The position numbers and the translations under genes were made by a program. The notes beneath the pieces were generated by a model. The model was given only the letters and a program-made list of their open reading frames with translations, was not told where the DNA came from and did no database searches. From NCBI GenBank assembly GCA_963756335.1, contig CAVWOB010000017.1:205536-245535 (forward strand): a stretch of 40,000 nt of DNA, in the 5' to 3' direction. This document shows positions 13,827 through 28,942 of the stretch, piece by piece. How positions within the stretch are numbered: position 1 is the stretch's first letter; the number at the start of each line of letters is the position of its first letter. Origin of the DNA: an uncultured Alphaproteobacteria bacterium (GTDB taxonomy: Bacteria > Pseudomonadota > Alphaproteobacteria > Rhizobiales > Rhodomicrobiaceae).

Positions 13827-13843
13827 CCGATAAGCCGCGCGAG
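13827..13843. repeat. Left copy of the direct repeat flanking the casposon-like element (putative target-site duplication)
   Basis: CCCCGATAAGCCGCGCGAG occurs at 13825-13843 and again at 28924-28942. Sequence diverges immediately outside the repeat: the left copy is preceded by ggat while the right copy is preceded by the TIR end, and the left copy is followed by the TIR start while the right copy is followed by cctgtc. A 17-bp parse (CCGATAAGCCGCGCGAG) makes both element termini symmetric. Confidence 0.8.
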
Positions 13844-15768
13844 GGGGGAGTGAGGGGGGGCCGCAACGCTCCTGTTTTGCGCACACTTAGCCGCACGAGT
13901 TAAGCGCGCTTTAAAAACTCTCGAAAAATTCCGCCATAAAATCGCGCACACGAAAAACGTGCGCAGAAATTTTCGACAAATCCGAAGCGGTTGTTTCACG
14001 CACACGTTCTGCGAGCATGTGTCTGAGCCTGCGTGTGAAGTGCATGTTTCACGCACGCTTCCCGGCAAGCATGTTTTGCGCAGCGCATGTTTCACGCACA
14101 TAAAATGCGCGCTATAATTTCGGGCAAGTTTTCTGCGCGTGGTGGAAAAGCCGCGTCAAGATGCGCGGCGAGCGAAGTGCATAATATACATGTGAGAGAG
14201 TGTGAGAGAGCTGTGTGTGGCGTGTAATGTGTTCGCGTTGCGCGCGGTAGAATGCATCATGCAAGTCGCGAGTAATTTCGAACAGAAGCAAGAACGCATT
14301 ACTTAAGACGCGTCTACATTTTCGCCTTATGTTGGTCGGGTCGAAAATTGATCAAGTTAATGTGCTGATTTGCATGAGAACAACTTAGCAGAACGTGTTT
14401 AACAGAGTGCTAATTTCGACTTCGGCTGTTGCATTTGGCGCGAGCTGGTGCGGGCCGCGTGAGGCATGCGGTATGCGGCATGTGGCATGCGGCATGCCAG
14501 TTGTTTCACAAGAGCTTGCGTGAAACGCGGCGCGCCATAGGGTTGCGCCGGGCAGGCGCTTTCGGATTGTATACAATCTGTGGAGCATCGCGCCGTCGGC
14601 CAGCGCCGGGCCATCGCCCCGAACGTCGCTGTCGGACTGCGCCTTGCCGCCAGTCTGCATCGCCCAGTCCCTCGCGGCCAACGCCGGGCGGTCGCCTCGA
14701 ACGTCGCCGCCGGTCTGCGCCGCGCCGTCGGTCCGCATCGAGCTGGCGCTCGCGGCCAGCGCCGGGCGGTCGCCCCGAACGTCGCCGCCTGTCCGCGCCT
14801 CGCCGCCGGACTGCATCGAGCTGGCGCCCGCGGCCAGCGCGGGGCCATCGCCCCGAACGTCGCCGCCGGTCTGCGCCGCGCCGCCGGACTGCATCGAGCT
14901 GGCGCTCGCGGCCAACGCCGGGCGGTCGCCCTGAACGTCGCCGCCTGTCCGCGCCTCGCCGTCGGACAGCATCAGGCGGTCGCTCTGAACGTCGCCGCCG
15001 GTCTGCGCCGCGCCGCCGGACTGCATCGAGCTGGCGCTCGCGGCCAACGCCGGGCGGTCGCCCCGAACGTCGCCGCCGGACTGCGACGGGCGGTCGCTCG
15101 CTGCCAGCGCCGGGCGGTCGCCTCGAACGTCGCCGCCGGTCTGCGCCGCGCCGCCGGTCCGCATCGAGCTGGCGCCCGCGGCCAGCGCGGGGCCATCGCC
15201 CCGAACGTCGCCGTCGGACTGCGCCTTGCCGCCGGACTGCATCGAGCTGGCGCCCGCGGCCAACGCCGGGCGGTCGCCCTGAACGTCGCCGCCTGTCCGC
15301 GCCTCGCCGTCGGACAGCATCAGGCGGTCGCTCTGAACGTCGCCGCCGGTCTGCGCCGCGCCGCCGGACTGCATCGAGCTGGCGCTCGCGGCCAACGCCG
15401 GGCGGTCGCCCCGAACGTCGCCGCCTGTCCGCGCCTCGCCGTCGGTCCGCATCGAGCTGGCGCTCGCGGCCAGCGCCGGGCCATCGCCCCGAACGTCGCC
15501 GCCGGACTGCGACGGGCGGTCGCTCGCGGCCAACGCCGGGCGGTCGCCCTGAACGTCGCCGCCTGTCCGCGCCGCGCCGCCGGTCCGCATCGAGCTGGCG
15601 CTCGCGGCCAGCGCCGGGCGGTCGCCCCGAACGTCACCGCCTGTCCGCGCCTCGCCGCCGGTCCGCATCGAGCTGGCGCTCGCGGTCAACGCCGGGCGGT
15701 CGCCCCGAACGTCGCCGCCGATCTGCGCCTCGCCGCCGGACTGCATCGAGCTGGCGCTCGCGGCCAGC
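13844..15768. repeat. Left terminal inverted repeat (TIR-L): ~750-bp unique subterminal segment plus a tandem module array
   Basis: Reverse-complementary to 26886-28925. For 13844-14934 every ORF boundary pair checked obeys x+y=42769 and the mirrored ORF translations are identical (e.g. 14644-14934 + versus 27835-28125 -; 14399-14848 - versus 27921-28370 +). Confidence 0.9.
14598..15768. repeat. Tandem array inside TIR-L: 16 GC-rich modules of 54, 60 or 78 bp
   Basis: 16 copies of the core GGCGGCGACGTTCRRGGCGAYSGCCCGGCGYTGGCC (seen here as its complement, ...gaacgtcgcc...). All six frames are open across the array. Confidence 0.9.
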
Positions 15769-15879: not shown

Positions 15880-18800
15880 TCATGTGTTCGGAAACGTTAA
15901 TTCGCATCGCAGTCCTTCAGGCTCGTAGCGGAGATCGCAATCGCCATCGAGTTCATGTTGCGTAATCTGCCTGATAAGATTGGTGCCGAAGCCTTCGCGG
16001 TCCGGCTGTTTCACAAGCGGGCCGCCGCTTTCCTGCCAAATGAGGCGGATCGTGGCCTTACGTCTTATGTTCAAGCGCACGGAGACCCTGCCTCCATTCT
16101 GGGAGAGTGCGCCGTATTTTGCAGCGTTGGTTACGAGTTCATGAAGGGCGAGATAAGCCGAGAGCGCCTTCCGGGGCGGAAGCTCCACCTTCGGCCCTTC
16201 CACGATCACCCGCGCTGGATCGAAAGGCTGGGTGGCGTCTCGCACAAGCTGCGCAAGGCTGACCGGGGTCCAATCGCGCTTCAACAGCAGACTGTGAGCC
16301 TGCGCGAGCGCGGCAAGCCGACCTTGAAATACGTCCCCGAACTCTTCCAGAGACGCGCTATTGCTTAGTGTTTGCGATGCCATGGCTTGCGCAACGGAGA
16401 GTGCATTCTTGACGCGATGGTTGAGCTCATGCATCAGCAAATTCTGATACGCTTCGTCTTGTTTGCGTTCGGTGATGTCCTCGATCACCAGCAAAATGAG
16501 TTGAGCTTCGTCCACCCTTTGGCCGCTCAGCAGCATGGTCCTCTTGCCGATTGTTTCGAAGGTGTGCTCAACCAGTTGATTAGAAAAGTTTTCAAAGCGT
16601 TCCAGAACAGCGGTCAGAAGCGTGCGCAACAAAGGAATATTCCATTGACCGTTGCCAAGGTCGTAGACGAGGCGATGCAATGTCTGATCTGCGCTCACCT
16701 GAAAGGATTTGTAGAACGCTGGGTTGGCTGAAATCACGCGCAGATCGGGGTCGAGCACCAACAGCGGGGTCGGCACTGCTTCGACGACGCTCTCGGCGTA
16801 ATGCCGGGCAGCCTCGATGGCGGTGATATCGAAGAACGTAACCACCAGGCCGTCAATGCGGTCGTCACGGGTACGGTAGGGTTGAATACGACGGACGAAC
16901 CAACGGTCATTCCTGCTTCGAACCTGTTTTTGGGAAGGCGTCAGGGTGCGGAGCGTGCGCTCGCAATCCGCCGTAAAATCTTCATCCGCCGTTTTCTGGG
17001 AGAAGTCGGAAATTCGACGGCCGATATCGCTCGAGCGAACATTGAATAGGTTGACAACGCCCGGGGAGAACCAGCGAATGTGCAGGTCCCGGCCCAGAAA
17101 GAGCGTGGCCACGTCTGTGCTGCCCAGCAGATTGTCGAGATCATTGGTGCGCTCGTACAACTCGTCCACTTTGGCGCGCAACTGGTTGTTGACGGTGTTC
17201 AGCTCCTCATTAAGGGACTGCAGTTCCTCCTTCGAGGTCTCGAGCTCCTCGTTCGCGGCGCGAAGCTCTTCGTTCATGGACATGATTTCTTCGTTATAAG
17301 ACTTCAGCTCTTCCTGGGAGCGGTTCATGACGTCGGCCGACGTTATGATTTCCTCCCGAAGAAACTTGACCTCCGCTTCAAGTTCCTGCTCGCGCGACAA
17401 GTCTGGCGCGACCTCTGCTTTGCTCGCCATGCCGCTGGCCTTGGCCTCAACAAAACTGACAAGAAACCTGATTTCGCCATCCTGTTTGAGCGGGACAACT
17501 TCAACAAGAACGGGCACTGTTTTGCCGTCCTGACGGAACTGGCCCTGCTCCGTTTGCGGTGCGTTCGTCTCTTTTGCCTTTTCGATGATCCGGCGCAGGC
17601 GTAGGTCCAGTCCGTCGCGCGCCATTGCAAGGAGATCCTGGGTCGGTTCTCCCGATTGCGGCTTAAGGAACCGCTCCGTGGCGCCGTGGTAATAAAGCGT
17701 CTGAAGATTGCTGTCGATCAGAACGGAGGGCGGAGCGTAGCGGCCGGCCAGCGTCTTTAAGGCTTCCTCGGTTCTGCGCACAGGCATGCGTTGCCCTGTC
17801 TCCGGCGCTGGGTAGTTGGAGAGATACCGGCTTCCCCCCTGTGGAGAAGGAAAATCGACGATATCGTGACGGGTTGCACCGAGTTGGCGATAGAGCCGCC
17901 ACTTCTTGGAAATAGTCTCGAACAGGAACTCGGCTCCACCCAGAGACTCGGCGCTCCCGAGAAACAAATATCCCCCCTCGGAAAGAGCGAAATGGAACAA
18001 CCGCAAGACCTTCTGTTGGACCTCAGATTGAAGATAGATCAGAACGTTACGGTAAACGATGAGGTTTAGTCGTGAAAAGGGCGGGTCCTGAACGGCATTT
18101 TGAGGTGCGAATACCACGCATTCCCGAAGCTTCCGCGAGACCGCAGCAATATCGTCTCCGCGCTCGAAATAGTCCCGTCTCAGCTTTTCTGGCAGGAGCT
18201 GCAAGGCGGCTTCGGGGTAAAGCCCTGCCCGCGCTCGGCTCAGTGCGGTCGGCGACGGGTCGGTGGCGAAAATCTCGATGGGAAAGCGCTTCTTCTGAGC
18301 CTTCATCTCCTCCATCAGAAGCATGGCGAGCGAGTATGCTTCCTCGCCCGAAGCGCACCCAGGCGCCCAGGCGCGAAAGGGCTGGTCGGTGTCATGCGCT
18401 GCGATGAGCGGGCGGAGGGCCTCGTCGCGAAGCGTGTTCCAGGCTTCCTGATCGCGGAAGAAACCGGTTACGGCAATAAGCAGGTCGTTGGTAAGGGCCT
18501 GTATTTCCTCCCGTTTCTCGTGCAGGTATTTGACATAAGCGTCCCAGCTGTTCAGCCGCAGCAAGCCGACCCGGCGGCCGATGCGCCGCTGCAGCGTTCC
18601 CGTCTTGTAGTTTCGGAAGTCGATCGAGGTGTTTGCGCGCAATGTCCCGAGGATCGCCTTGAACGCCTTCTCCTTTCCCGCCTCATTTTGCACAGCTGAA
18701 GTATTTGCCTCTTGCTGCTGCTCACCTGCAGCGGGAGAGCGGAGATGCTCCGCGTAGCGTGCTATCGTTGCGATCATCTCCTCCGGAAGCAGCACGGAGT

Positions 18801-19326
18801 CCACGAACCCCGTACCAATCGCACGCCTTGGCATCTCGCCGAATTCTGCAGAGTCCGGGCTTTGCGCGAGGACGAGGCCGCCTCCTTCGCGAACCGCGGA
18901 CAGGCCTGCAGAGCCGTTGGACCCCGTCCCAGACATGACGACGGCAATCGCCCTCGATCCGGCGTCCTCGCCGAGCGACGCAAAAAGTTCGTCCACGGGA
19001 TGAGCGATCCCCGCCCCCCGCTTATGTGGCTCCAGCCATCCTTGCCGCACCACCAGCGCTTGACCGGGAGCAAGAACGTACACATGCCCAGCTTCGATCC
19101 GCGTCCTGCCAGCGACCTCGGAGACCGAAAGGCGGACCGTGCGCTGCAACAGCTCCGCCAGATGGCTTTTGTGATCGGGAGAGAGGTGCGATATGACGAC
19201 AAACGCCATATCTATGGGATCGCCCGACGCTTCGACGGCCTCAAAAAATGCCGTGAACGCCGTCAGGCCCCCGGCGGACCCGCCCAGGGCGACGATAGGA
19301 AAAGCGTTGGCCGGTGCAACCGTCAT
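15880..19326 (-). CDS. CheB-methylesterase / CheR-methyltransferase / PAS / HWE-type histidine kinase fusion protein (cargo gene of the element)
   Basis: 1148 aa. N-terminal CheB catalytic domain (VALGGSAGG..., MSGTGSNGSAG). CheR SAM-methyltransferase (VTGFFRD, WAPGCASGEEAYSLAMLL, IFATD). A coiled-coil, PAS modules, HisKA_2-type H-box LMHELNHRVKNALSVAQAM and HELVTNAAKYGAL. Confidence 0.85.
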   Translation of the reverse strand: MTVAPANAFPIVALGGSAGGLTAFTAFFEAVEASGDPIDMAFVVISHLSPDHKSHLAELLQRTVRLSVSEVAGRTRIEAGHVYVLAPGQALVVRQGWLEPHKRGAGIAHPVDELFASLGEDAGSRAIAVVMSGTGSNGSAGLSAVREGGGLVLAQSPDSAEFGEMPRRAIGTGFVDSVLLPEEMIATIARYAEHLRSPAAGEQQQEANTSAVQNEAGKEKAFKAILGTLRANTSIDFRNYKTGTLQRRIGRRVGLLRLNSWDAYVKYLHEKREEIQALTNDLLIAVTGFFRDQEAWNTLRDEALRPLIAAHDTDQPFRAWAPGCASGEEAYSLAMLLMEEMKAQKKRFPIEIFATDPSPTALSRARAGLYPEAALQLLPEKLRRDYFERGDDIAAVSRKLRECVVFAPQNAVQDPPFSRLNLIVYRNVLIYLQSEVQQKVLRLFHFALSEGGYLFLGSAESLGGAEFLFETISKKWRLYRQLGATRHDIVDFPSPQGGSRYLSNYPAPETGQRMPVRRTEEALKTLAGRYAPPSVLIDSNLQTLYYHGATERFLKPQSGEPTQDLLAMARDGLDLRLRRIIEKAKETNAPQTEQGQFRQDGKTVPVLVEVVPLKQDGEIRFLVSFVEAKASGMASKAEVAPDLSREQELEAEVKFLREEIITSADVMNRSQEELKSYNEEIMSMNEELRAANEELETSKEELQSLNEELNTVNNQLRAKVDELYERTNDLDNLLGSTDVATLFLGRDLHIRWFSPGVVNLFNVRSSDIGRRISDFSQKTADEDFTADCERTLRTLTPSQKQVRSRNDRWFVRRIQPYRTRDDRIDGLVVTFFDITAIEAARHYAESVVEAVPTPLLVLDPDLRVISANPAFYKSFQVSADQTLHRLVYDLGNGQWNIPLLRTLLTAVLERFENFSNQLVEHTFETIGKRTMLLSGQRVDEAQLILLVIEDITERKQDEAYQNLLMHELNHRVKNALSVAQAMASQTLSNSASLEEFGDVFQGRLAALAQAHSLLLKRDWTPVSLAQLVRDATQPFDPARVIVEGPKVELPPRKALSAYLALHELVTNAAKYGALSQNGGRVSVRLNIRRKATIRLIWQESGGPLVKQPDREGFGTNLIRQITQHELDGDCDLRYEPEGLRCELTFPNT

Positions 19327-19338
19327 TCGCGGATGCTA

Positions 19339-19626
19339 TCAGATTGGGGGGGGGGGCGCTTGGAAATTTTCCAATATTGCAACGCTATTTGCCACATACT
19401 TGTAGAGAACGGCACGGGGAAGATGCGGGCGCAAATTCCAATACTTGGCCGCAATTCCGAGAACAACTTCTTCCGTGTAGCTTGAGATGTTGGCGGTGTC
19501 GAGCACGCCCACTATGAGATCCGAAAGCAGGCATAACCGCTTGAGCGCTCTTCCAAGGCCCGCTTCTTCAGCTGACGGCCTTTGCCCGACTTTGAGCGCC
19601 GGTTCCGACCTAGGCGCGTCTGCCAT
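19339..19626 (-). CDS. Hypothetical 95-aa protein between cas1 and the kinase gene
   Basis: ORF only. It starts 14 nt after the cas1 stop with no clear SD. Its C-terminal PPPP is encoded by the 11-nt homopolymer tract at 19346-19356. Confidence 0.3.
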   Translation of the reverse strand: MADAPRSEPALKVGQRPSAEEAGLGRALKRLCLLSDLIVGVLDTANISSYTEEVVLGIAAKYWNLRPHLPRAVLYKYVANSVAILENFQAPPPPI

Positions 19627-19640
19627 CGGCTTGCGCTATC

Positions 19641-20855
19641 TTATCGCCGCGAAGTCGTCCTTCCATCGCCCCGCCTAACAGCGCTCTCAAGCCACTCGCA
19701 TAATTCGCTCAAGTCTCGTTGCGTCGCCAGCGCGCGACCCGCCACGATCCGCGCGATTTCCGGCGCGAGCCGAACGACGCCGTTGTTTGAGAGCGTGAAT
19801 TCCTTACGCCGGAAAGTGCGGTTCGCGGTGAAACTCAGAATTCGCGCATCGATGGGGCCGCGCTGCAATTCCAGCGCGTCATAGACGAGACTCGCGCGAT
19901 ACTCTTTCAAGAGATGAAGAAACCCTATGGCGGTATCGAAGCCCCAAGCCGTTAAAGCGCGTTCGATCTGTGCGGCGGCGACCATGTAAGCATAGTTCAA
20001 TATCGCGTTGAAGGGATGGAGAGCGTGACGCGGCGAAGGATTACAGAGCGAAGCGTTGCGGCTATCCCAAGAATCCCAAGCTTCCGGCCAATCTTTTCCA
20101 AGACCGCGAAAAACGAGCTTCCTTCTAAGTCCAATGAAATGCGCCTGTGCAGCTACACCTTCGGCAAGCAGGAGGTTCGGCAAATCAGTCGCCATCTTGA
20201 CCCGCGAGAGATGCGCGTGCGTCTCGCGTCTACTGAGAAAGCCGCATTCGCAGCTCGCGAGAATCTTCTGTGTGACGATGGCGGACGCGACCGGCAAGGG
20301 GTTTGAGAAAGCGGCGTACTGCGCCAGCCGAAGTTTTGCTTGCTTGGCTGGCGGCGTGGTGAGCATGACGGAAGCCGTGTTATGCCCGGTCGCGACGAAC
20401 AGCCCAACCTCATGACGCGCCAGCCATTTCAGCGCCTCTCCTGTGACATGGAAACCGGGCGCTTCCGCTATGATGCTTTCGAAAGGCGGCAGTCCAGGCA
20501 TATATGAGATTTCGCGGTCCGCGTCGAAGACTACCAGTTGCTTCTTTCGAACTGAAAGCCCGGAACACGGCCCCTGTAGAATGAGCACTTTGGCATTGAC
20601 CGCTCTAGACGATGCACGCCAGTAGGCTGGCAGTTTTAGGCTTGCTTGACCGGTCCGTCTTAACGCATCCGGTGTTAACCCGCATTCCTTGACCGCCCGC
20701 ATAGTCGCGTTGACTTTATAGCCATGCTTCTCGGCGAGTTTTGCGTAGGATAATCCCGAAGCCCTTCCTTGAAGCATCGAATTCAGAACGTTTTCGGGAA
20801 TGTCGATGCGAGGCATGAGAAAATCCGTCGAAGAAAACCAGGTGCTAATGTACAC
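19641..20855 (-). CDS. cas1: Stand-alone Cas1 homologue (putative casposase)
   Basis: 404 aa. The C-terminal half reads ...LLLAEGVAAQAHF...HPFNAILNYAYMVAAAQIERALTAWGFDTAIGFLHLLKEYRASLVYDALELQRGPID. This matches the Cas1 alpha-helical domain pattern N..LNY.Y...G.d...GFLH...R.SLvyD..E..Rp.vD, with the Glu/His/Asp metal-binding positions present. The N-terminal half looks like a beta-rich Cas1 N-domain (VLILQGPCSGLSVRKKQLVVFD...). An alternative start lies at 20816. Confidence 0.8.
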   Translation of the reverse strand: MYISTWFSSTDFLMPRIDIPENVLNSMLQGRASGLSYAKLAEKHGYKVNATMRAVKECGLTPDALRRTGQASLKLPAYWRASSRAVNAKVLILQGPCSGLSVRKKQLVVFDADREISYMPGLPPFESIIAEAPGFHVTGEALKWLARHEVGLFVATGHNTASVMLTTPPAKQAKLRLAQYAAFSNPLPVASAIVTQKILASCECGFLSRRETHAHLSRVKMATDLPNLLLAEGVAAQAHFIGLRRKLVFRGLGKDWPEAWDSWDSRNASLCNPSPRHALHPFNAILNYAYMVAAAQIERALTAWGFDTAIGFLHLLKEYRASLVYDALELQRGPIDARILSFTANRTFRRKEFTLSNNGVVRLAPEIARIVAGRALATQRDLSELCEWLESAVRRGDGRTTSRR

Positions 20856-21134
20856 GCACGAAATTACAAGCGCGTAAATGCGCGCACTTTTCGGCGTCTC
20901 TCAAAAACGTCTCAACAAAACATGCCACCACAGACAGACATAAAAGAGAACTCTACTTTGTTCTAGCTGATTTGGCTAGAGCTAAGCCTTTGCCTTTCTT
21001 GGTACTCCTGTCCGTATGCGATGAAATTACAACACTTAGAACCTGACTTAGAACCTGACAGGCCGCGTTAACCTTTGGTTAACCCACGCCGTCTCAAATC
21101 AGGTTAATGTAGCAATAGAAGGAAGGAGAAAGCT
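20856..21134. promoter_or_regulatory. Divergent control region between cas1 (-) and the RHH/PolB operon (+)
   Basis: AT-rich 279-bp spacer. Perfect tandem 12-mer CTTAGAACCTGA x2 (21035-21058). Palindrome GTTAACCtttGGTTAAC (21067-21083). GAAATTACAA occurs twice (about 20866 and 21023). Strong SD gaaggaaggag precedes the 21135 ATG. Confidence 0.5.
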
Positions 21135-21419
21135 ATGCCTAAGCATGAAAAACAGGTCGCTCTGCAAATCTACCCTGTAGATTTCGAATACATCACAGAA
21201 CTATCCACGGAACGCGGCGTGTCGAAGCGCCACATTTTACGTTCGGCGCTTAGATCGGGCTTGCGCATGTTGCTCGAAAAACACTCGAATACAGCGTTGC
21301 TCGATCAATATGACGCCGCTCTCAAGCAAGGTTTTGAGAAAGAGTGTCGCGAGAAAGCTGATAGGCTTCGCAAAACTTGGGCGCTCGATTTCAGCGAGGC
21401 TGACAATGTTGCCGTTTGA
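21135..21419 (+). CDS. Small ribbon-helix-helix (CopG/Arc-like) DNA-binding protein, putative
   Basis: 94 aa with a strong SD. The N-terminal stretch KQVALQIYPVDFEYITELSTERGVSKRHILRSALRSGLRML fits a beta-strand/helix/helix RHH layout. Confidence 0.5.
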   Translation: MPKHEKQVALQIYPVDFEYITELSTERGVSKRHILRSALRSGLRMLLEKHSNTALLDQYDAALKQGFEKECREKADRLRKTWALDFSEADNVAV

Positions 21420-21687
21420 CGAAAAGATTAGATATGCCGTCGATCTTTCACCTGAGGAACATCGTGTTCTTTGGGCTTTGGCACGCGAGTGCGGCTTGGT
21501 ACGCTCCGACTTGGCGGCGATAGCCATCGTGCGCGGCTTACCGCTCATTTCTGATGGTGAGAAGCTGACGGCTTACAAGGCGCGCCGCCGGGAAGCGCTC
21601 AATCTGCGGCGCAAGTTCAATCCCGATCTTGATGAGCGCGATTTTGAGCCGTCGAGAACTGAGACCGGACATGCGCACGCTTCCTGA
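21406..21687 (+). CDS. Second small RHH-like protein, putative
   Basis: Internal ATG at 21406 overlaps the upstream stop by 14 nt. IRYAVDLSPEEHRVLWALARECGLVRSDLAAIAIVRGL again resembles the RHH pattern. Confidence 0.4.
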   Translation: MLPFDEKIRYAVDLSPEEHRVLWALARECGLVRSDLAAIAIVRGLPLISDGEKLTAYKARRREALNLRRKFNPDLDERDFEPSRTETGHAHAS

Positions 21688-22216
21688 AACGAACATCACC
21701 GGTTTCCGGCTTATCGACAAGGGCGCACCCGCCGTTGCAGAACGTATCCAAGTTTTTTTAAGCGCGCCTATGCGGATGTATCGCGCCTCGCATTACGATG
21801 CTCTCGCGCGCCGTATCGAAATGTCGCTCCACCCGAGAGCCGATGTTTTATCCGCGCGCGAAATGTTTCTTGATTGGCGAGATTGGTGCGTCAACTACCG
21901 AGAGCGCATCGCAAGGGTCTCTATCGTTTACATCTTGACTGATCTGCACGGGTATATCGGCGCTGGCCAGTTCGCCGAACTTGCGGAGATGATTAATCTC
22001 CCGAACGAATGTGATCGGCATCCCGTCCGCAAAATGATCGCCGTCCGCCCCTATACCCGTAGCATGCATGCCGATAACTTAGAGTTCTGCGAACGTGGTC
22101 ATTTTGAGATGCTTCCGAATTGGGATTTTCAGCGCTGCGCAAAATTCAGTAAGAGCTTGCCGAGTTACCATATCAGTTACGTCGAATTAGTCCGCAAAGA
22201 AAAAAAAGGCGGCTGA
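21671..22216 (+). CDS. Hypothetical protein with a Cys/His-rich C-terminal part
   Basis: ORF 21629-22216; the ATG at 21671 overlaps the upstream gene end. No recognisable family. The C-terminal segment CDRHP...HADNLEFCERGH...C might bind metal. Confidence 0.45.
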   Translation: MRTLPETNITGFRLIDKGAPAVAERIQVFLSAPMRMYRASHYDALARRIEMSLHPRADVLSAREMFLDWRDWCVNYRERIARVSIVYILTDLHGYIGAGQFAELAEMINLPNECDRHPVRKMIAVRPYTRSMHADNLEFCERGHFEMLPNWDFQRCAKFSKSLPSYHISYVELVRKEKKGG

Positions 22217-22520: not shown

Positions 22521-23195
22521 ATGGCTAAAAAGCTGACCCGCGCCGAAAAAAGAATTGCCGGGGCCAAAGCGGCGGATTTCCGTAAGCTGACAAAGGCCGA
22601 ACTCGAAAAGCTTGGCCATTCGGCTAAATCATCGCGCTATATAGAGATCGGCAAGCGCGTCGCCAAAAACACGAAGACGATTTCGAAGCGCCTTTTCACG
22701 GTCAAGATGACCGGCGCGTCACCGGAAGCTCTCGCGAGAGCGCATGCGGAAGGCGAACTGATCTATAAGAGCCGGAAGAACCAAGATGCAGCCGAGAAGC
22801 AGCGACGCACACGACTTAAACAAAAGGTTGAACGCAACGCGAAACGCGAGCTTGAATTAGCCGATAGGAAGTACAAACCATTATCAGCGAAACAATCCGA
22901 ACGCGCGACGTTTAACTTCGAAAAGAAGGTCTCGAATATTCGATATGCCCAACCCGAATTGAATGCGCGAGAAAAGCAGTCTTGGCGAGTTAGCCGGTAT
23001 ATTGGCGATCAAGCTGTAAACGATTATCGCCAAAAGGTCAGCGATCCAAACCATTTCGTTCCTCACGGTCGCTATCAAAACCTGCTCGATATCGCGCGCG
23101 CAGCGGGTGATCCTAACATTGGGCGGCTCTTGCAGTCGAAAAGCGATAAACGCGCAAGCGATGAAGATGACTTAGAAATTGATGAGGCGGCCTAA
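22521..23195 (+). CDS. Highly basic Lys/Arg-rich 224-aa protein, translationally coupled to PolB (nucleic-acid-binding; terminal-protein candidate)
   Basis: Strong SD aaaggagg. The stop overlaps the PolB start (TAATG at 23192-23197). Lys/Arg-rich throughout. No recognisable family. Confidence 0.6.
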   Translation: MAKKLTRAEKRIAGAKAADFRKLTKAELEKLGHSAKSSRYIEIGKRVAKNTKTISKRLFTVKMTGASPEALARAHAEGELIYKSRKNQDAAEKQRRTRLKQKVERNAKRELELADRKYKPLSAKQSERATFNFEKKVSNIRYAQPELNAREKQSWRVSRYIGDQAVNDYRQKVSDPNHFVPHGRYQNLLDIARAAGDPNIGRLLQSKSDKRASDEDDLEIDEAA

Positions 23196-25996
23196 TGTCA
23201 AACGAAGCATTCACGGTCATTCCGAACACGACGCGGATAATCATGCCCAGCGCGTTCGAAATCGCTCTTTTAGAAAATCGCGCAGCACAAGACAAAGCAC
23301 GTGGAAAAGAACGCAGTCGGCGATTTCGCAAAAGTTTGGCGAATGATCCAGAGAAGCGCACGAAGCGAGTTGAAGCGGAAAAGCGCCGAAAAAAAGAAAA
23401 CCCGCAAGCCGACGCGGCATATGAACGCCGCGCCAAAAGCGACAAATATCACAAACCTTTCGTTTCCATCGATGCGGAGGGACAAAACTATCTCGGCTTG
23501 GATGATATCAAGCGCCTACACGGCGTTCTCGATCAACAGGGGAATCCGGTATCACCTCTCGAAATCGTCTTTCCCGCCCATCATACCTTTCTGTGGGGCG
23601 CTAAAGGTTCGTTGCGGAAGCATGCCGCGAGCGCCATCGAAAAAGCAGAACCAGAACAACAAAAGCGCATGCTGCTGGAGATGGAAGACACGACCGAATA
23701 TTGGCTTGGCGATCAAAGTAAAAAACCGCTTACGTCTCTCGAAATCGTGGAATGGCTAACAGGCTTGCCGGAGAAGTTCGGTCCAAAAAACGGCTACAAA
23801 CACGGTGTCGTGTTCGTCTCTTTCGCATTCGGTTACGATGCTACGCAGATATTGAAAGGCTTGCCACATGAGGTCGCATATAAAATCAGTCGTCGCGAAA
23901 TTTACGGGACTAAAAAAAGCGTTGCCGGGTTTGAGTTCTGGAAAGATTATGCTTTTGAGTATCTCAAAGGAAAGTATCTAAAAATATGGAAGCTCGTTCC
24001 TGGACGAAGCCCGTGGCTCTTGAAGCTTGATAAAGACGGCCAGCCATACACAAATGCGAACGGGGAACTCGCGCGAAAACTCAACTCGACGGCGCACATT
24101 TGCATATTCGACGCTTTCGGTTTTTATCAAGAGAGTTTCGTTAGGGCGACACAAAGTCTTGTGGACAAGGGATATGTAGAAAAGTCCGATCACGATATCG
24201 TTGCCGAAAACAAAAAGCATCGCTCTAAGTTCGATAACGTAGATTTCGATACTATCAAGAAATATTGTGGACTTGAGCTAACAATGCTTTCGAAGGCGCT
24301 GACGGTATTGCGTGACGGGACCGACAAAATCGGAATTAGGTTGTCGCGTTGGTCCGGCGCAGGTACGGCGGCGGGCGAGCTTATCAAAGAAAAAAAGCTG
24401 AAGGAAGAGCACTATTCTGAAGATATAGCAATTCGCGACATAAGCATGCAGCAAGATCGCGCCCATCATGCGTTTTTCGGTGGACGAATTGAGTTGATAA
24501 AACAAGGCTACGCCAAAGACCAAAGGCTCCAGATTTATGATATCGCAAGCGCATATCCAAGTGCTTGCTTGTGCCTGCCCTCGATGAAAGGCGGAACATG
24601 GATACATAGCGGATGCAAACCAGTCCGCTACGTCGAAGGAAAACAGGCGAATATCCTAAGCATGTTTCACGTTCATTGGAATTTTCCGAGGCAAGGAAAA
24701 GATGGAAGACCTATCCCCTTCTTCCCATTTCCCTACAGAACCGTGAAAAGAGGACTTATTCTTTTCCCGAGCGCTGGCAATGCATGGTTGATGCGCGACG
24801 AAGTATTGGCAGGAATTGATTGGTTCAAAACATTTTTTCCAAAGACGAAGATTGAAAGCCATATGCGCATCGAAGAATGTTCGTTATTCGAACCGGCAAG
24901 CGATGCAAAGCCTTACGATTTTCTACCGGACATGTATAAATGGCGCAAGGCGCTTAAGCAGCAACATGATATTACTGAAAAGGTTATCAAACTCGTCATC
25001 AATTCGCTTTACGGCAAGACCGCCCAGTCTATCGGCGGCAACGCGGAGAATGGCACGCCGCCTTCATCCGCCTGCCCCTATTACGCATCCGCAATTACAG
25101 CGTGGTGTCGCGCGCGCGTGCTGAAAGCGGCGCTAAAAGACCCGTATGCAATCGTGTCTTTCATGACCGATGGAATATGCAGTCAGCGCCCGCTCGATCT
25201 CGGGGCGCTGCTCAAGCCGGAAGGCTCGCGCGACGTTCATCTAGGCGATTGGGAATGGAAGGAAGTACAAAACGGCTTCTTTCTGCAAAGCGGCGTCTAT
25301 GCATATGAGAAACTCAACAAGACAGGAAAAGCCGTGCAGACAGGCAAATCTCGCGGTTTTGATCCGAAGAAAATCGATGGTCAGACGGCTGACGGCGGAC
25401 CAAGCGACGATCCACATGCATCTCTATTCGAAAAAGACTTGTTAGACTTCTTTCGCGAAGACGTTTTGCCTATCTGGAGAATGCCCCCTGTATCGAGAAA
25501 GAGCGACGGTTCTGAAATTGCGCCGACATTCATCTATTGGATCAAGCGATACATTTCGATAGGCGAAGCATGCACGTCGCCCGAACGGTTTAAGCTGGCA
25601 GGACGTTGGGCGTATGTGCCACGAGAAATGCGGGTCATGAAACCTGGGCCTAAACGCGACTGGCTTGATGGAACGGGATGGTCAATCATGTCAGACCCTA
25701 ACCCTAAGCCGCTAGCGCTTAAACGGCTTGAACAATTCGAGACATGGTTCGGCATTGGCGCGCGCGAAATGTACGAATGTATCAAAGCGGGAGAACCGTT
25801 ACGCTGCCGCTATTTGGTTCCAACAATTCCCGCGCTCAATCCGACGCCCGAACAGTTGTCCGCACCTGCTTATCCCGATTGGCTTGACAAAGATCGCGAT
25901 ACGAAGAAAGTACCACGTACTGATGACAGAGAAGAGCTTTCACTGATCGATGAATATGACGAAGATACTATCACGGTGCTTGCGGGGATGAGTTGA
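23195..25996 (+). CDS. Family-B DNA polymerase with 3'-5' exonuclease domain
   Basis: 933 aa. Exo I FVSIDAEG. Exo II-like VVFVSFAFGYDATQIL. Pol motif A LQIYDIASAYPSA (DxxSxYPS). Motif B KLVINSLYGKTAQ (KxxxNSxYG). Motif C IVSFMTDGI (TDG in place of the canonical DTD). A basic ~85-aa N-terminal extension is also present. Confidence 0.85.
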   Translation: MSNEAFTVIPNTTRIIMPSAFEIALLENRAAQDKARGKERSRRFRKSLANDPEKRTKRVEAEKRRKKENPQADAAYERRAKSDKYHKPFVSIDAEGQNYLGLDDIKRLHGVLDQQGNPVSPLEIVFPAHHTFLWGAKGSLRKHAASAIEKAEPEQQKRMLLEMEDTTEYWLGDQSKKPLTSLEIVEWLTGLPEKFGPKNGYKHGVVFVSFAFGYDATQILKGLPHEVAYKISRREIYGTKKSVAGFEFWKDYAFEYLKGKYLKIWKLVPGRSPWLLKLDKDGQPYTNANGELARKLNSTAHICIFDAFGFYQESFVRATQSLVDKGYVEKSDHDIVAENKKHRSKFDNVDFDTIKKYCGLELTMLSKALTVLRDGTDKIGIRLSRWSGAGTAAGELIKEKKLKEEHYSEDIAIRDISMQQDRAHHAFFGGRIELIKQGYAKDQRLQIYDIASAYPSACLCLPSMKGGTWIHSGCKPVRYVEGKQANILSMFHVHWNFPRQGKDGRPIPFFPFPYRTVKRGLILFPSAGNAWLMRDEVLAGIDWFKTFFPKTKIESHMRIEECSLFEPASDAKPYDFLPDMYKWRKALKQQHDITEKVIKLVINSLYGKTAQSIGGNAENGTPPSSACPYYASAITAWCRARVLKAALKDPYAIVSFMTDGICSQRPLDLGALLKPEGSRDVHLGDWEWKEVQNGFFLQSGVYAYEKLNKTGKAVQTGKSRGFDPKKIDGQTADGGPSDDPHASLFEKDLLDFFREDVLPIWRMPPVSRKSDGSEIAPTFIYWIKRYISIGEACTSPERFKLAGRWAYVPREMRVMKPGPKRDWLDGTGWSIMSDPNPKPLALKRLEQFETWFGIGAREMYECIKAGEPLRCRYLVPTIPALNPTPEQLSAPAYPDWLDKDRDTKKVPRTDDREELSLIDEYDEDTITVLAGMS

Positions 25997-26047
25997 AAGC
26001 TTAAGTCTCGTGCGACGCGATTTGGTGACCATGCAGGAAACACGTAA

Positions 26048-26308
26048 ATGAACAACACCTTTCAGAATTACATGCTCAAACTCGGGCCTCTGTTCGGCGG
26101 CGTCATGTTGCCGAACCCAAGCCCAGCGGAAGTCAATCTTTCGAATATCTATGCAGAGTTGAACCATAGTTCGGATGCCGAAATACACGCAAGAGATTTT
26201 GTTCGCGCGCGCAAAAGCGTTGAAAATGTGCTGTACGCGGTCGTACGCATCATGAAACTCATCAGAACTTCTTTGGAGGTTGCATGCCGTTCGCTCTTAT
26301 CATCATAG
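26048..26308 (+). CDS. Hypothetical small protein
   Basis: 86-aa ORF with a weak SD (agga). It overlaps the downstream membrane-protein gene by 25 nt. Confidence 0.35.
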   Translation: MNNTFQNYMLKLGPLFGGVMLPNPSPAEVNLSNIYAELNHSSDAEIHARDFVRARKSVENVLYAVVRIMKLIRTSLEVACRSLLSS

Positions 26309-26796
26309 GCTTGGCTTTGGTCATCACCTCTGCCCAAGATACTTACGTGCAGTTTGGGCGTCAGATCAAATCCGATTTGATCGGACCGGGAGGTTTTATC
26401 TATTGGGCGGCTTCTCTCGGAATGGCGGGCTCTTTTGGATACATCGAACCGCTGCGCCGTTTCAGCACCGCGTTAATGGGTCTGGTCTTGTTGGTGTTTC
26501 TGTTGAAGAACAAAAATTTCTTCGCCAATCTCAAAGCCGGTTTGGCGGCGAAACCTGTAACTCCCGCAAAAAGCGATGCGTCAAAGATGCCTTCCATCTC
26601 GCCAGCTTCTTTGGCGCTCACGCTCGATAAGAACACGCTCAACCTTGGCGGAAACGCTACGAACTTCGGTAATTGGATGACGCAACTCATGACGGGGGTT
26701 GATCCGGCGACGGCTGTGCCGCTCACAGGCATCAACGGCGTTTCGGTTGACGACTTCCTTGGCGCATGGCGCGGGCCGGAGAGCGGAGCTTTTTGA
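26284..26796 (+). CDS. Hypothetical integral membrane protein (about three TM helices)
   Basis: GGAGG lies 5 nt upstream of the ATG. Hydrophobic segments FALIIIGLALVITSA, FIYWAASLGMAGSFGYI and ALMGLVLLVFLL. Confidence 0.6.
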   Translation: MPFALIIIGLALVITSAQDTYVQFGRQIKSDLIGPGGFIYWAASLGMAGSFGYIEPLRRFSTALMGLVLLVFLLKNKNFFANLKAGLAAKPVTPAKSDASKMPSISPASLALTLDKNTLNLGGNATNFGNWMTQLMTGVDPATAVPLTGINGVSVDDFLGAWRGPESGAF

Positions 26797-26885: not shown

Positions 26886-28171
26886 CGCAGATTGCGAGCG
26901 ACCGCCCGTCGCAGTCCGGCGGCGACGTTCGGGGCGATGGCCCCGCGCTGGCCGCGAGCGCCAGCTCGATGCGGACCGGCGGCGCGGCGCAGACCGGCGG
27001 CGACGTTCGAGGCGACCGCCCGGCGCTGGCCGCGAGCGACCGCCCGTCGCAGTCCGGCGGCGACGTTCGGGGCGATGGCCCGGCGCTGGCCGCGAGCGCC
27101 AGCTCGATGCAGTCCGGCGGCGCGGCGCAGACCGGCGGCGACGTTCAGAGCGACCGCCTGATGCTGTCCGACGGCGAGGCGCGGACAGGCGGCGACGTTC
27201 AGGGCGACCGCCCGGCGTTGGCCGCGGGCGCCAGCTCGATGCAGTCCGGCGGCAAGGCGCAGTCCGACGGCGACGTTCGGGGCGATGGCCCCGCGCTGGC
27301 CGCGGGCGCCAGCTCGATGCGGACCGGCGGCGCGGCGCAGACCGGCGGCGACGTTCGAGGCGACCGCCCGGCGCTGGCAGCGAGCGACCGCCCGTCGCAG
27401 TCCGGCGGCGACGTTCGGGGCGACCGCCCGGCGTTGGCCGCGAGCGCCAGCTCGATGCAGTCCGGCGGCGCGGCGCAGACCGGCGGCGACGTTCAGAGCG
27501 ACCGCCTGATGCTGTCCGACGGCGAGGCGCGGACAGGCGGCGACGTTCAGGGCGACCGCCCGGCGTTGGCCGCGGGCGCCAGCTCGATGCAGTCCGGCGG
27601 CAAGGCGCAGTCCGACGGCGACGTTCGGGGCGATGGCCCGGCGCTGGCCGCGGGCGCCAGCTCGATGCGGACCGGCGGCGCGGCGCAGACCGGCGGCGAC
27701 GTTCGAGGCGACCGCCCGGCGTTGGCCGCGAGGGACTGGGCGATGCAGACTGGCGGCAAGGCGCAGTCCGACGGCGACGTTCAGAGCGACCGCCTGATGC
27801 TGTCCGACGGCGAGGCGCGGACAGGCGGCGACGTTCAGGGCGACCGCCCGGCGTTGGCCGCGAGCGCCAGCTCGATGCAGTCCGGCGGCGCGGCGCAGAC
27901 CGGCGGCGACGTTCGGGGCGATGGCCCCGCGCTGGCCGCGGGCGCCAGCTCGATGCAGTCCGGCGGCGAGGCGCGGACAGGCGGCGACGTTCGGGGCGAC
28001 CGCCCGGCGCTGGCCGCGAGCGCCAGCTCGATGCGGACCGACGGCGCGGCGCAGACCGGCGGCGACGTTCGAGGCGACCGCCCGGCGTTGGCCGCGAGGG
28101 ACTGGGCGATGCAGACTGGCGGCAAGGCGCAGTCCGACAGCGACGTTCGGGGCGATGGCCCGGCGCTGGCC
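26886..28171. repeat. Tandem array inside TIR-R: 18 GC-rich modules of 54, 60 or 78 bp
   Basis: 18 copies of the core ...GGCGGCGACGTTCRRGGCGAYSGCCCGGCGYTGGCC. Relative to the left arm it contains an extra 288-bp block (3x78+54), and the inner units are shuffled. Confidence 0.9.
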
Positions 28172-28925
28172 GACGGCGCGATGCTCCACAGATTGTATAC
28201 AATCCGAAAGCGCCTGCCCGGCGCAACCCTATGGCGCGCCGCGTTTCACGCAAGCTCTTGTGAAACAACTGGCATGCCGCATGCCACATGCCGCATACCG
28301 CATGCCTCACGCGGCCCGCACCAGCTCGCGCCAAATGCAACAGCCGAAGTCGAAATTAGCACTCTGTTAAACACGTTCTGCTAAGTTGTTCTCATGCAAA
28401 TCAGCACATTAACTTGATCAATTTTCGACCCGACCAACATAAGGCGAAAATGTAGACGCGTCTTAAGTAATGCGTTCTTGCTTCTGTTCGAAATTACTCG
28501 CGACTTGCATGATGCATTCTACCGCGCGCAACGCGAACACATTACACGCCACACACAGCTCTCTCACACTCTCTCACATGTATATTATGCACTTCGCTCG
28601 CCGCGCATCTTGACGCGGCTTTTCCACCACGCGCAGAAAACTTGCCCGAAATTATAGCGCGCATTTTATGTGCGTGAAACATGCGCTGCGCAAAACATGC
28701 TTGCCGGGAAGCGTGCGTGAAACATGCACTTCACACGCAGGCTCAGACACATGCTCGCAGAACGTGTGCGTGAAACAACCGCTTCGGATTTGTCGAAAAT
28801 TTCTGCGCACGTTTTTCGTGTGCGCGATTTTATGGCGGAATTTTTCGAGAGTTTTTAAAGCGCGCTTAACTCGTGCGGCTAAGTGTGCGCAAAACAGGAG
28901 CGTTGCGGCCCCCCCTCACTCCCCC
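26886..28925. repeat. Right terminal inverted repeat (TIR-R)
   Basis: Reverse complement of 13844-15768. Ends ...CGTTGCGGCCCCCCCTCACTCCCCC, immediately followed by the direct repeat. Confidence 0.9.
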
Positions 28926-28942
28926 CCGATAAGCCGCGCGAG
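28926..28942. repeat. Right copy of the flanking direct repeat (putative target-site duplication)
   Basis: CCGATAAGCCGCGCGAG is identical to 13827-13843. Because of the C-run the identity can be read as 15 to 19 bp. Confidence 0.8.

What the first reader, a model, noticed from the sequence alone, without database searches (positions are those of the whole stretch)
19641..20855. Cas1 without a CRISPR context and with extra N-terminal sequence
The catalytic C-terminal domain is well conserved: Glu in LLLAEG, His in GFLH, Asp in SLVYDALE. The protein is longer than typical ~300-aa Cas1. It has an N-terminal ~50-aa segment (..GLSYAKLAEKHGYKVNATMRAVKECGLTP..) that looks like a helix-turn-helix, and a C-terminal tail (..IARIVAGRALATQRDLSELCEWLESAV). 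Described casposases usually carry a C-terminal HTH, so an N-terminal one would be a variant architecture. The gene is divergently transcribed from the RHH/PolB operon, which suggests separate regulation of transposition and replication functions.
Basis: partly seen in the sequence, partly recalled or inferred. Interest (0 to 1): 0.7.

Follow-up and report, generated by a model that had tools for sequence, protein, structure and literature searches.

The report
Bacterial casposon with tectivirus-type polymerase
The lone Cas1 gene is the integrase of a complete, apparently recently inserted 15-kb self-replicating transposon (a casposon) of a kind not described in the papers I could search: bacterial host, tectivirus-like protein-primed-type DNA polymerase, 2-kb inverted ends, and a DNA-binding domain at the front of Cas1 instead of the back.

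Summary
The ORF is real, but the likely start is the ATG at 20816 (391 aa, not 404). It is a Cas1-fold protein (Pfam 4.6e-27). Its best sequence and fold match is the M. mazei casposase 6OPM. All four catalytic residues are kept. An N-terminal three-helix HTH is supported at moderate strength. No CRISPR array or other cas gene was found in the window.

The gene sits inside a 15,084-bp element (13843-28926). The element has ~2-kb terminal inverted repeats whose outer 1,257 nt are 99% identical. The repeats end in G6 runs, and a perfect 15-bp target-site duplication abuts them. It also carries a PolB of the protein-primed (PF03175) class closest to actinobacterial tectiviruses, a putative terminal protein and a CheB-CheR-PAS-HWE kinase as cargo.

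A second complete element (Cas1 72% identical, different cargo) has its own 15-bp duplication at a similar target sequence. About a dozen alphaproteobacterial MAG loci also pair related Cas1 and PolB genes; three have G-run termini flanked by 14-bp duplications.

Published casposons with this polymerase class are thaumarchaeal. Published bacterial casposons use RNA-primed-type PolB plus HNH. I class this as a new variant (family) of a known kind. Activity, the role of the HTH and the priming mode are inferred.

The parts
13828..13842 (.). Left copy of the 15-bp target-site duplication CGATAAGCCGCGCGA. The match extends to 16 bp if the next G is counted.
   Evidence: Read directly. The 16-mer occurs exactly twice in the window with 0 mismatches, at the two element ends.
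13843..15766 (+). Left terminal inverted repeat. It starts with the terminus GGGGGGAGTGAGGGGGGGCCGCAACGC. A unique part of ~750 bp follows, with five TGTTTYDCGCA sites at 13873-14098. Then comes a ~1.2-kb array of 78-bp tandem repeats (14597-15766).
   Evidence: Inverted repeat 13843-15099 / 27670-28926, 1,257 nt, 99%. Arrays from TRF. Motif: 10 copies in the window, all inside the two TIRs, against 0.12 expected. The terminal ~60 nt are conserved with element L091.
15880..19326 (-). Cargo gene: a 1148-aa CheB methylesterase - CheR methyltransferase - PAS - HWE histidine kinase fusion, downstream of and co-oriented with cas1.
   Evidence: Pfam hits to CheB_methylest, CheR, PAS_10, PAS_4 and HWE_HK. 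Absent from the related elements L004, L090 and L091, which carry other genes in this slot.
19641..20816 (-). Casposase (Cas1 family), 391 aa. Layout: N-terminal HTH (residues 8-44; nt 20685-20795), disordered linker (47-74), Cas1 beta domain (77-150), catalytic alpha domain (160-362) with E219, H301, D313 and E316, and an extra C-terminal helix (366-383).
   Evidence: Pfam and NCBIfam. PDB sequence search: 6opm 5e-15. AF2 model pLDDT 79. Foldseek: 6opm 3.7e-16, ahead of CRISPR Cas1s at ~1e-11. HTH evidence.
20817..21134 (.). Divergent intergenic (presumed promoter/operator) region between cas1 and the PolB-side gene block. It contains a 12-bp tandem repeat ACTTAGAACCTG x2.2 at 21034-21059.
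   Evidence: No significant sigma-70 consensus was found.
21135..22216 (+). Three small conserved genes of unknown function: 94 aa (21135-21419), 93 aa (21406-21687) and 181 aa (21671-22216). The first two look RHH-like by eye only.
   Evidence: Synteny and 47-80% identity in L004 and L090. No Pfam, NCBIfam, PHROG or PDB support; the only trace is RHH_1 at E 0.18 in the L004 orthologue.
22521..23195 (+). Putative terminal protein: 224 aa, highly charged, with its stop codon overlapping the PolB start (ATGA).
   Evidence: The position directly upstream of the PolB is conserved in L004, L039, L047 and L024. No family match. The assignment rests on position only (inference; compare PMC4046053 on family 1).
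23195..25996 (+). Family B DNA polymerase of the protein-primed class, 933 aa.
   Evidence: Pfam DNA_pol_B_2 3.3e-9. PHROG 11768 'DNA polymerase' 2e-40. 106 homologues, nearly all carrying PF03175. Best phage hits are actinobacterial Tectiviridae at 2e-35 to 4e-32, then His1 and ABV. Exo I-III and Pol A/B motifs are conserved; PolC is xTDG and KxY is replaced by K-x-R-G.
26284..26796 (+). 170-aa predicted membrane protein of unknown function.
   Evidence: PHROG 14462 (unknown function) 6.7e-16 over residues 1-85. No Pfam match.
26894..28926 (-). Right terminal inverted repeat. It mirrors the left arm: a ~1.3-kb array of 78-bp repeats (26894-28180), a unique part with five TGTTTYDCGCA sites, and a terminus ending ...TCCCCCC-3' at 28926.
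28927..28941 (.). Right copy of the 15-bp target-site duplication.

Best explanation
Window 13843-28926 is an integrated casposon, a self-synthesizing DNA transposon. The gene in the finding encodes its casposase.

Shown:
- A Cas1-fold protein with the complete catalytic tetrad lies between ~2-kb terminal inverted repeats that are nearly identical in their outer 1.26 kb.
- The repeats are abutted by a perfect 15-bp direct repeat.
- The element also carries a B-family polymerase of the protein-primed class.
- A second element of the same subfamily has its own 15-bp duplication.

Inferred mechanism:
- The casposase, probably as a tetramer as in M. mazei, uses the 3'-OH of the C-run termini (...TCCCCCC-3') to attack the two target strands 15 bp apart. 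Gap repair then produces the duplication.
- The N-terminal HTH takes the role that the C-terminal HTH plays in family 2 casposases. It would recognise either the target sequence or the repeated TGTTTYDCGCA sites or iterons in the TIRs.
- The element is copied by its own PolB. Priming is most likely by the 224-aa protein encoded just upstream, acting as a terminal protein. The G6-7 terminal homopolymer would then allow sliding-back initiation, as at the 3'-CCCC ends of PRD1 (my own knowledge of that system).
- The slot downstream of cas1 carries exchangeable cargo: a CheB-CheR-PAS-HWE kinase here, and an Hsp70-like protein plus an AAA ATPase in the relative.
For: Cas1 identity:
- Pfam 4.6e-27.
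- 6opm casposase is the best PDB sequence hit at 5e-15, against 3e-7 or weaker for CRISPR Cas1s.
- Foldseek gives 6opm 3.7e-16, TM about 0.63-0.71.
- E219, H301, D313 and E316 are invariant and correspond to the E162/H232/E247 site of the solved casposase (PMC6977970).

Element boundaries:
- 1,257-nt arms at 99% identity.
- 15-bp TSD, present only at the two ends.
- The TSD length equals the 14-15 bp made by the A. boonei and M. mazei casposases (PMC6977970).
- M. mazei casposon ends also finish in ...CCC-3' (same paper).

Family evidence:
- L004 and L090/L091 (Cas1 72% identical) show the same gene order.
- L091 is complete (52-15150), with TIRs, a related terminus and its own 15-bp TSD TCCCCGGACAGGCGA.
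- L021, L026 and L039 have GGGGGG(G)A termini and 14-bp TSDs, one of them with a mismatch.
- 13 of 80 GTDB loci pair a related Cas1 with a related PolB.

Other points:
- No CRISPR array, other cas gene, HNH, tyrosine or serine recombinase, capsid or packaging gene appeared among the ORFs scanned.
- The insertion lies in an intergenic region 63 bp after the stop codon of an EnvZ-like kinase.
- Element G+C is 46-59% (excluding the 74-79% G+C repeat arrays in the TIRs), against ~64% in the flanks.
Against: - No empty site was recovered. The closest related genome (L087) is rearranged at this position. An exact-match scan for the predicted empty junction and another for the terminus both found nothing.
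- Integrase activity, DNA binding by the HTH, terminal-protein function and extrachromosomal replication are untested.
- The window protein's own N-terminus hits no Pfam HTH model. Foldseek matches of the isolated domain are not significant (E about 1).
- The PolB carries PolC (xTDG) and K-x-R-G substitutions that resemble the signature of primer-independent piPolBs (PMC5695915). Protein priming is therefore not certain.
- L047 shows long TIRs but no recognisable TSD.
Confidence: 0.85

Rival explanations
1. An integrated linear plasmid or defective tectivirus-like prophage. Its own biology would consist of the long TIRs, terminal protein and protein-primed PolB. Cas1 would be passenger cargo, and integration would have occurred by another route.
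For: The PolB is closest to Tectiviridae polymerases. Kb-scale TIRs with homopolymer termini are typical of protein-primed linear replicons (my knowledge). Published casposon TIRs are 25-602 bp (PMC9939771).
Against: No double-jelly-roll capsid, packaging ATPase or other virion gene was found, and no other integrase or recombinase, in any ORF scanned. The 15-bp TSD is the Cas1/casposase signature (PMC6977970). Cas1 and PolB co-occur with TIRs and 14-15-bp TSDs in several independent loci. No IMG/VR relative of the PolB was found.
Confidence: 0.07
2. A decayed CRISPR-Cas adaptation module or a domesticated 'Cas1-solo' host gene with a non-transposition role. The flanking repeats would be unrelated.
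For: The gene is annotated simply as 'CRISPR-associated protein Cas1' by source pipelines. It passes the TIGR00287 cas1 cut-off.
Against: There is no array, cas2 or cas4. The Cas1-solo group 1 proteins described as inactive lack the full catalytic set (PMC4046053), whereas all four residues are kept here. The gene lies inside a TIR/TSD-bounded, low-G+C element with a PolB, and this association recurs in other genomes.
Confidence: 0.03
3. A real casposon, but now immobile or non-autonomous: a fossil whose polymerase or casposase no longer works.
For: No empty site or second copy was found. In the relative L090/L091 the PolB is split into three ORFs; this could be decay or long-read sequencing error.
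Against: The TIR arms are 99% identical over 1,257 nt and the TSD is perfect. All long ORFs are intact, with catalytic motifs conserved.
Confidence: 0.05

Closest known systems
Family 3 casposons (bacterial; e.g. NitAL212-C1, HenMar-C1; Krupovic et al. 2014, PMC4046053)
   Same: Both have bacterial hosts. The Cas1 is 27-39% identical to casposases that sit next to RNA-primed-type PolBs in Nitrosomonas, Sphingomonadales, Hyphomonadaceae and other Alphaproteobacteria. In a rough NJ tree the window's clade sits beside clades of such casposases. Both have a TIR/TSD architecture.
   Different: The polymerase here is PF03175 (protein-primed class), not PF00136. No HNH endonuclease was found. The HTH is N-terminal. 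The TIRs are about 2 kb with tandem arrays.
Family 1 casposons (Thaumarchaeota; PMC4046053, PMC6563490, PMC8464041)
   Same: Both carry a protein-primed-class PolB. Both have a compact gene set with a few small conserved ORFs and a candidate terminal protein just upstream of polB.
   Different: The host is a bacterium. Family 1 casposases have no HTH. Family 1 PolBs are reported to group with archaeal viruses (His1/His2). This PolB matches actinobacterial tectiviruses far better (about 1e-35) than His1 (5e-6).
M. mazei family 2 casposase, PDB 6OPM (PMC6977970)
   Same: It is the best sequence and fold match. Shared features are the two-domain Cas1 fold, the E/H/(D)E active site, a 14-15-bp TSD and a transferred strand ending in a C run.
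   Different: About 21-22% identity over the fold alignment. The HTH that is essential in 6OPM is C-terminal. Here the C-terminus is a single helix and the HTH is N-terminal, joined by a ~28-residue disordered linker.
Replication module of actinobacterial Tectiviridae (Rhodococcus phage Toil, Microbacterium phage SCoupsA, Streptomyces phage WheeHeim)
   Same: The PolB is 26-29% identical over 430-530 residues. It shares the xTDG and K-x-R-G motif variants and a C-terminal LS.P..P.WL motif. Both have small ORFs directly upstream of polB and linear-replicon-style TIRs.
   Different: No capsid, packaging or lysis genes are present. Integration is by Cas1. The PolB has a basic N-terminal extension of ~85 residues and is 933 aa long, against about 600-700 aa in the phages.
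Pipolins (piPolB elements; PMC5695915, PMC11551731)
   Same: Both are bacterial self-replicating elements. Both have PolC with the first Asp replaced and an RG-type motif in place of KxY.
   Different: Pipolins integrate with tyrosine recombinases and are flanked by att direct repeats. There is no Cas1, and there are no TIRs or 15-bp TSDs. tblastn of this PolB against 72,556 plasmids found nothing.

Membership tests
Casposon superfamily | Cas1-family integrase (casposase) with the full catalytic set | tested here: met
   Pfam, NCBIfam and the fold search agree. E219, H301, D313 and E316 are invariant.
Casposon superfamily | Family B DNA polymerase encoded in the same element | tested here: met
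   933-aa PolB at 23195-25996 with Exo and Pol motifs.
Casposon superfamily | Terminal inverted repeats at the element ends | tested here: met
   13843-15099 / 27670-28926 at 99%, continuing inward as arrays.
Casposon superfamily | Target-site duplication of about 14-15 bp | tested here: met
   A 15-bp perfect duplication. Relatives have 14-15 bp.
Casposon superfamily | No CRISPR array and no cas2 or effector genes | tested here: met
   plus Pfam scans.
Casposon superfamily | Casposase-catalysed integration (biochemical) | not testable with these tools
   Needs an in vitro integration assay.
Casposon family 1 | Protein-primed-class PolB | tested here: met
   PF03175 match, and tectivirus, His1 and ABV polymerase hits.
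Casposon family 1 | Thaumarchaeal host, with a PolB grouping with archaeal viruses | tested here: not met
   The flanking genes are alphaproteobacterial and Rhodomicrobium-like. The PolB matches bacterial tectiviruses at about 1e-35, against His1 at 5e-6. No formal tree was built.
Casposon family 1 | Casposase without extra domains (no HTH) | tested here: not met
   N-terminal HTH.
Casposon family 2 | C-terminal HTH on Cas1, plus an HNH endonuclease and RNA-primed-type PolB | tested here: not met
   The C-terminus is one helix. No HNH was found. The PolB is PF03175.
Casposon family 3 | Bacterial host, with the casposase in the bacterial casposase radiation | tested here: inconclusive
   The host criterion is met. 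The NJ tree places the protein among bacterial casposases beside rPolB-linked clades. No reference family 1, 2 or 4 sequences were included and no ML support was obtained.
Casposon family 3 | RNA-primed-type PolB (PF00136-like) and an HNH endonuclease | tested here: not met
   The Nitrosomonas loci have PF00136 PolBs. The window PolB is PF03175, and no HNH was found.
CRISPR-Cas adaptation module | Cas2 partner and an adjacent CRISPR array | tested here: not met
Pipolin | piPolB signature (SxTTDG, KH-X8-KTRG) | tested here: inconclusive
   The window has SFMTDG and K-x9-KSRG. The same variants occur in tectiviral polymerases, so the motifs do not discriminate.
Pipolin | Tyrosine-recombinase integration with att direct repeats | tested here: not met
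   No recombinase other than Cas1 was found, and the element has a TIR + TSD architecture.
Tectiviridae prophage | Double-jelly-roll capsid protein and FtsK-type packaging ATPase | tested here: not met
   No such hit in Pfam, PHROGs or NCBIfam for any element ORF scanned.

The most novel reading that the evidence does not exclude
This is a founding member of an undescribed fifth kind of casposon. It would be confined mainly to Alphaproteobacteria. A bacterial (family-3-like) casposase with an N-terminal HTH would have been joined to a tectivirus-type terminal-protein/PolB replication module and to kb-long, iteron-bearing TIRs with G-run ends. The element would replicate as a protein-capped (or self-primed, piPolB-like) linear episome and integrate with sequence preference for a ~45-bp site. 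This would mean casposons have swapped replication modules with viruses at least twice independently, once in archaea and once in bacteria.
Probability: 0.45. Interest if true: 0.75.

Novelty: new variant of a known kind. Interest (0 to 1): 0.62.

Why it matters
Casposons are the proposed ancestors of the CRISPR adaptation machinery. Only four families are recognised, and a 2024 comparative study drew on just 48 casposon sequences from two reference studies (PMC11551731).

A bacterial lineage that combines Cas1 with a tectivirus-type polymerase shows that the Cas1 integration module is portable between replication systems in bacteria as well as archaea.

It also offers a casposase with the DNA-binding domain at the opposite end of the protein. 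That gives a natural test of what the HTH does: target choice or end binding.

The 99%-identical arms and perfect duplication suggest a recently active element in a Rhodomicrobium-like lineage. Two relatives appear to use a similar target sequence. Both observations make in vitro and in vivo transposition experiments feasible.

Tried and rejected
1. Empty site. An exact look-up of the neighbouring response regulator found nothing. Scans of metagenome contigs for the predicted empty junction and for the terminus found nothing. The nearest genome with the orthologous kinase (L087, 89%) has the downstream FolB..DUF4139 block in the opposite orientation, so it gives no clean empty site. A second comparator has different genes downstream.

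2. The 869-aa ORF 11492-14101 (-) that overlaps the left TIR was rejected as a spurious antisense ORF. The + strand encodes an OmpR-type regulator and an EnvZ-like kinase.

3. Are the 78-bp arrays coding? Long ORFs are open in several frames. In the frame of the longest ORF, however, the third codon position is the least variable among 29 repeat units. There are no family hits. In L047 the array periods are 65, 100 and 115 bp, which are not multiples of 3. I treat the arrays as non-coding iterons. The periods of 78 bp (window) and 96 bp (L091) are multiples of 3, which leaves some doubt.

4. piPolB identity. The motif resemblance is real but shared with tectiviral polymerases. The plasmid collection gave no hit.

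5. RHH assignment of the two small ORFs was not supported. The PDB hits of the 93-aa ORF to AI-designed TIM barrels are composition artefacts.

6. IMG/VR held no relative of the PolB.

7. The window's own genome is not among the GTDB representatives scanned, so the organism is inferred only from homologue names.
Full report
**Observation**

The ORF 19641-20855 (-) is present. Its closest homologues begin MPRIDIP or MRRIDIP, and the protein on record in the public collection for this gene has 391 aa. The likely start is therefore the ATG at 20816. The upstream sequence shows no strong ribosome-binding site for either start.

The protein matches Pfam Cas_Cas1 (4.6e-27) and TIGR00287. It also matches many PADLOC Cas1 models, but no subtype-specific NCBIfam model reaches its cut-off. 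The best solved relative by sequence is the Methanosarcina mazei casposase 6OPM (5e-15), against 3e-7 or weaker for CRISPR Cas1s.

An AlphaFold model built on 17 homologues (pLDDT 79) shows five parts:
- a three-helix N-terminal bundle (residues 8-44);
- a disordered linker (47-74);
- the Cas1 beta domain (77-150);
- the helical catalytic domain (160-362);
- one extra C-terminal helix (366-383).

Foldseek ranks the three 6OPM chains first (3.7e-16 to 6.8e-15), ahead of CRISPR Cas1 structures at about 1e-11. E219, H301, D313 and E316 are invariant in the family. They line up with the conserved motifs of 6OPM and Synechocystis Cas1. The published casposase active site is E162/H232/E247 (PMC6977970).

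**The N-terminal domain**

The window protein's first 82 residues hit no Pfam model on their own. The same alignment columns in relatives do hit HTH models: HTH_38 (1.3e-5), HTH_23 (8e-6 and 2e-4), HTH_7 and HTH_24.

A profile of these columns finds the domain only in two groups. One is the window's own clade. The other is a sister clade whose members carry a second insert of about 70 residues.

A separate model of residues 1-70 keeps the three helices (pLDDT 81-84 over residues 11-40). Its Foldseek list consists almost entirely of HTH DNA-binding domains. Examples are LuxR-type regulators, AsnC, the paired domain, sigma region 4, KorA, a serine recombinase, and IstA and Mos1 transposases. No hit is significant (E about 1). 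I rate the HTH as supported at moderate strength.

**Context: a complete mobile element**

The window contains two inverted arms, 13843-15099 and 27670-28926 (1,257 nt, 99%). They continue inward as arrays of 78-bp tandem repeats, to about 15766 on the left and from about 26894 on the right.

Both arms start GGGGGGAGTGAGGGGGGGCCGCAACGC. They are abutted by the direct repeat CGATAAGCCGCGCGA at 13828-13842 and 28927-28941. The 16-mer that includes the next G occurs exactly twice in the window.

The enclosed 15,084 bp has 46-59% G+C outside the repeat arrays (which reach 74-79%) against ~64% outside. It encodes, in order:
- a CheB-CheR-PAS-HWE kinase fusion;
- the Cas1;
- on the other strand, three small ORFs;
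- a 224-aa charged protein whose stop overlaps the PolB start;
- a 933-aa PolB;
- a 170-aa membrane protein.

The element lies 63 bp after the stop of an EnvZ-like kinase, between convergent host genes. The large ORF that seems to overlap the left arm is a spurious antisense ORF.

There is no tRNA gene in the window. There is no CRISPR-like array apart from the continuous tandem arrays. No other cas gene, HNH, recombinase or virion gene appeared among the ORFs scanned.

**The polymerase**

It matches PF03175 and a PHROG DNA polymerase family (2e-40). It has more than 100 homologues, nearly all carrying PF03175.

By tblastn it is closest to polymerases of actinobacterial tectiviruses: SCoupsA at 2e-35, Toil at 4e-32, and WheeHeim. 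His1 and the Acidianus bottle-shaped viruses follow. Nothing was found in plasmids or IMG/VR.

Exo I-III and Pol A/B motifs are conserved. PolC is xTDG, and KxY is replaced by K-x-R-G. These substitutions resemble the published piPolB signature (PMC5695915). The tectiviral homologues share them, so they do not settle the priming mode.

**Relatives**

The Cas1 clade is rare. Only 17 of 1.84 billion cluster representatives score at 1e-30 or better.

L004, L090 and L091 (Cas1 72% identical, PolB 47-70% identical) have the same gene order.

L091 holds a complete second element at 52-15150 with these features:
- TIRs (335 nt at 95% identity, plus 96-bp arrays);
- a related terminus, GGGGGGGGAGAGGAGGGGGGAGCAACGCC;
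- its own 15-bp duplication, TCCCCGGACAGGCGA;
- different cargo: an Hsp70-like protein, a 546-aa protein and an AAA ATPase.

The reconstructed target sites of the two elements align over about 43 bp centred on the junctions, with the two duplications offset by about 15 bp. The alignment score is 27, against 17.2 +/- 2.5 for shuffles (maximum 30). This suggests target preference and independent insertions, but it is not proof.

A scan of GTDB representative genomes found 350 relatives. Among the best 80:
- most sit next to RNA-primed-type PolBs (family-3-like; Nitrosomonas, Sphingomonadales and others);
- 13 sit next to homologues of the window PolB.

Several of those 13 have long TIRs. L047 has 1,857-nt TIRs with tandem repeats, L021 has 331 nt and L015 more than 531 nt. 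L021, L026 and L039 have GGGGGG(G)A termini flanked by 14-bp duplications, one of them with a mismatch.

A rough NJ tree places the window clade next to the HTH-bearing clade, several members of which sit next to rPolB genes. A larger pPolB-linked clade lies beside both. No reference sequences of families 1, 2 or 4 were available and there is no support measure, so this placement is provisional.

**Comparison with the literature**

- Protein-primed-class PolB defines family 1 casposons. These are thaumarchaeal, and their casposases lack an HTH (PMC4046053, PMC6563490, PMC8464041).
- Bacterial casposons (family 3) carry RNA-primed-type PolB and HNH (PMC4046053, PMC9939771).
- The C-terminal HTH is a family 2 trait and is essential for M. 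mazei casposase activity (PMC6977970).
- Reported TIRs are 25-602 bp (PMC9939771).
- Four full-text searches found no description of bacterial casposons with this polymerase class or with an N-terminal HTH. The library is incomplete, so an existing description cannot be excluded.

**Mechanism**

Shown: the anatomy (Cas1 fold and catalytic residues, TIRs, TSD, PolB) and its recurrence in other genomes.

Inferred:
- Cas1-catalysed integration with a 15-bp stagger.
- The HTH as a specificity domain for the target or the ends. Candidate sites are the five TGTTTYDCGCA copies per arm, which are found only in the TIRs, and the arrays.
- Terminal-protein-primed replication from the G-run ends.
- A modular cargo slot downstream of cas1.

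**Verdict**

The element is best filed as a casposon that fails the defining features of families 1, 2 and 3. I therefore class it as a new variant of a known kind.

Noticed in passing
window 14597-15766 and 26894-28180: Each TIR contains ~1.2-1.3 kb of 78-bp tandem repeats at 75-78% G+C, far above the element core. Long ORFs are open in several frames. Relatives have arrays of 96 bp (L091) or 65/100/115 bp (L047). Variation by codon position argues against coding, but the function of the arrays (iterons? spacers?) is unknown.
   Followed up: partly
window 13873-14098 and 28671-28896: Five same-orientation copies of TGTTTYDCGCA lie in the terminal 255 bp of each arm. There are 10 in the window against 0.12 expected. 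They are candidate protein-binding sites.
   Followed up: partly
window 15880-19326 (-): The element's cargo is a 1148-aa CheB-CheR-PAS-HWE histidine kinase fusion. The closest related element (L091 8239-14048) carries an Hsp70-like 836-aa protein, a 546-aa unknown and an AAA ATPase in the same slot.
   Followed up: partly
window 28927-35257 versus L087 7448-13380: Compared with the nearest genome that has the orthologous kinase, the block FolB..PRC..DUF4139 is inverted in the window. One breakpoint coincides with the element's insertion site. The other breakpoint (about 35.3 kb) shows no element remnant.
   Followed up: partly
window 21034-21059: A 12-bp tandem repeat ACTTAGAACCTG x2.2 lies in the divergent cas1/small-ORF intergenic region. 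It could be an operator.
   Followed up: no
window 23195-25996 (PolB residues 655-660 and 708-721): PolC reads SFMTDG, and KxY is replaced by K-x9-KSRG. This resembles the piPolB signature (SxTTDG, KH-X8-KTRG). The same variants occur in polymerases of actinobacterial tectiviruses, some of which are annotated 'DNA primase/polymerase'.
   Followed up: partly
L001, L002, L005, L007, L009, L012 (loci): A sister clade of 470-530-aa Cas1 proteins has the same N-terminal HTH plus a second ~70-residue insert. Some sit next to rPolB-like genes. L007 sits next to an AEP-TOTE primase-helicase, and L001 and another contig next to TIR-domain proteins. These may be further casposon variants.
   Followed up: partly
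L047 454-2309 and 10761-12617: A 12-kb Cas1-pPolB element has 1,857-nt TIRs (99.9%) in which the inverted repeat runs 24 nt beyond the G-run. No TSD is recognisable, and the cas1 3' end overlaps the right TIR.
   Followed up: partly
window 3983-10258 (-): A 2091-aa GAF/multi-PAS hybrid histidine kinase has a 390-bp internal tandem duplication (7819-8776). It is a host gene unrelated to the element.
   Followed up: no
window 26284-26796 (+): A 170-aa membrane protein at the PolB-distal end of the element matches a phage protein family of unknown function (PHROG 14462, 6.7e-16).
   Followed up: no
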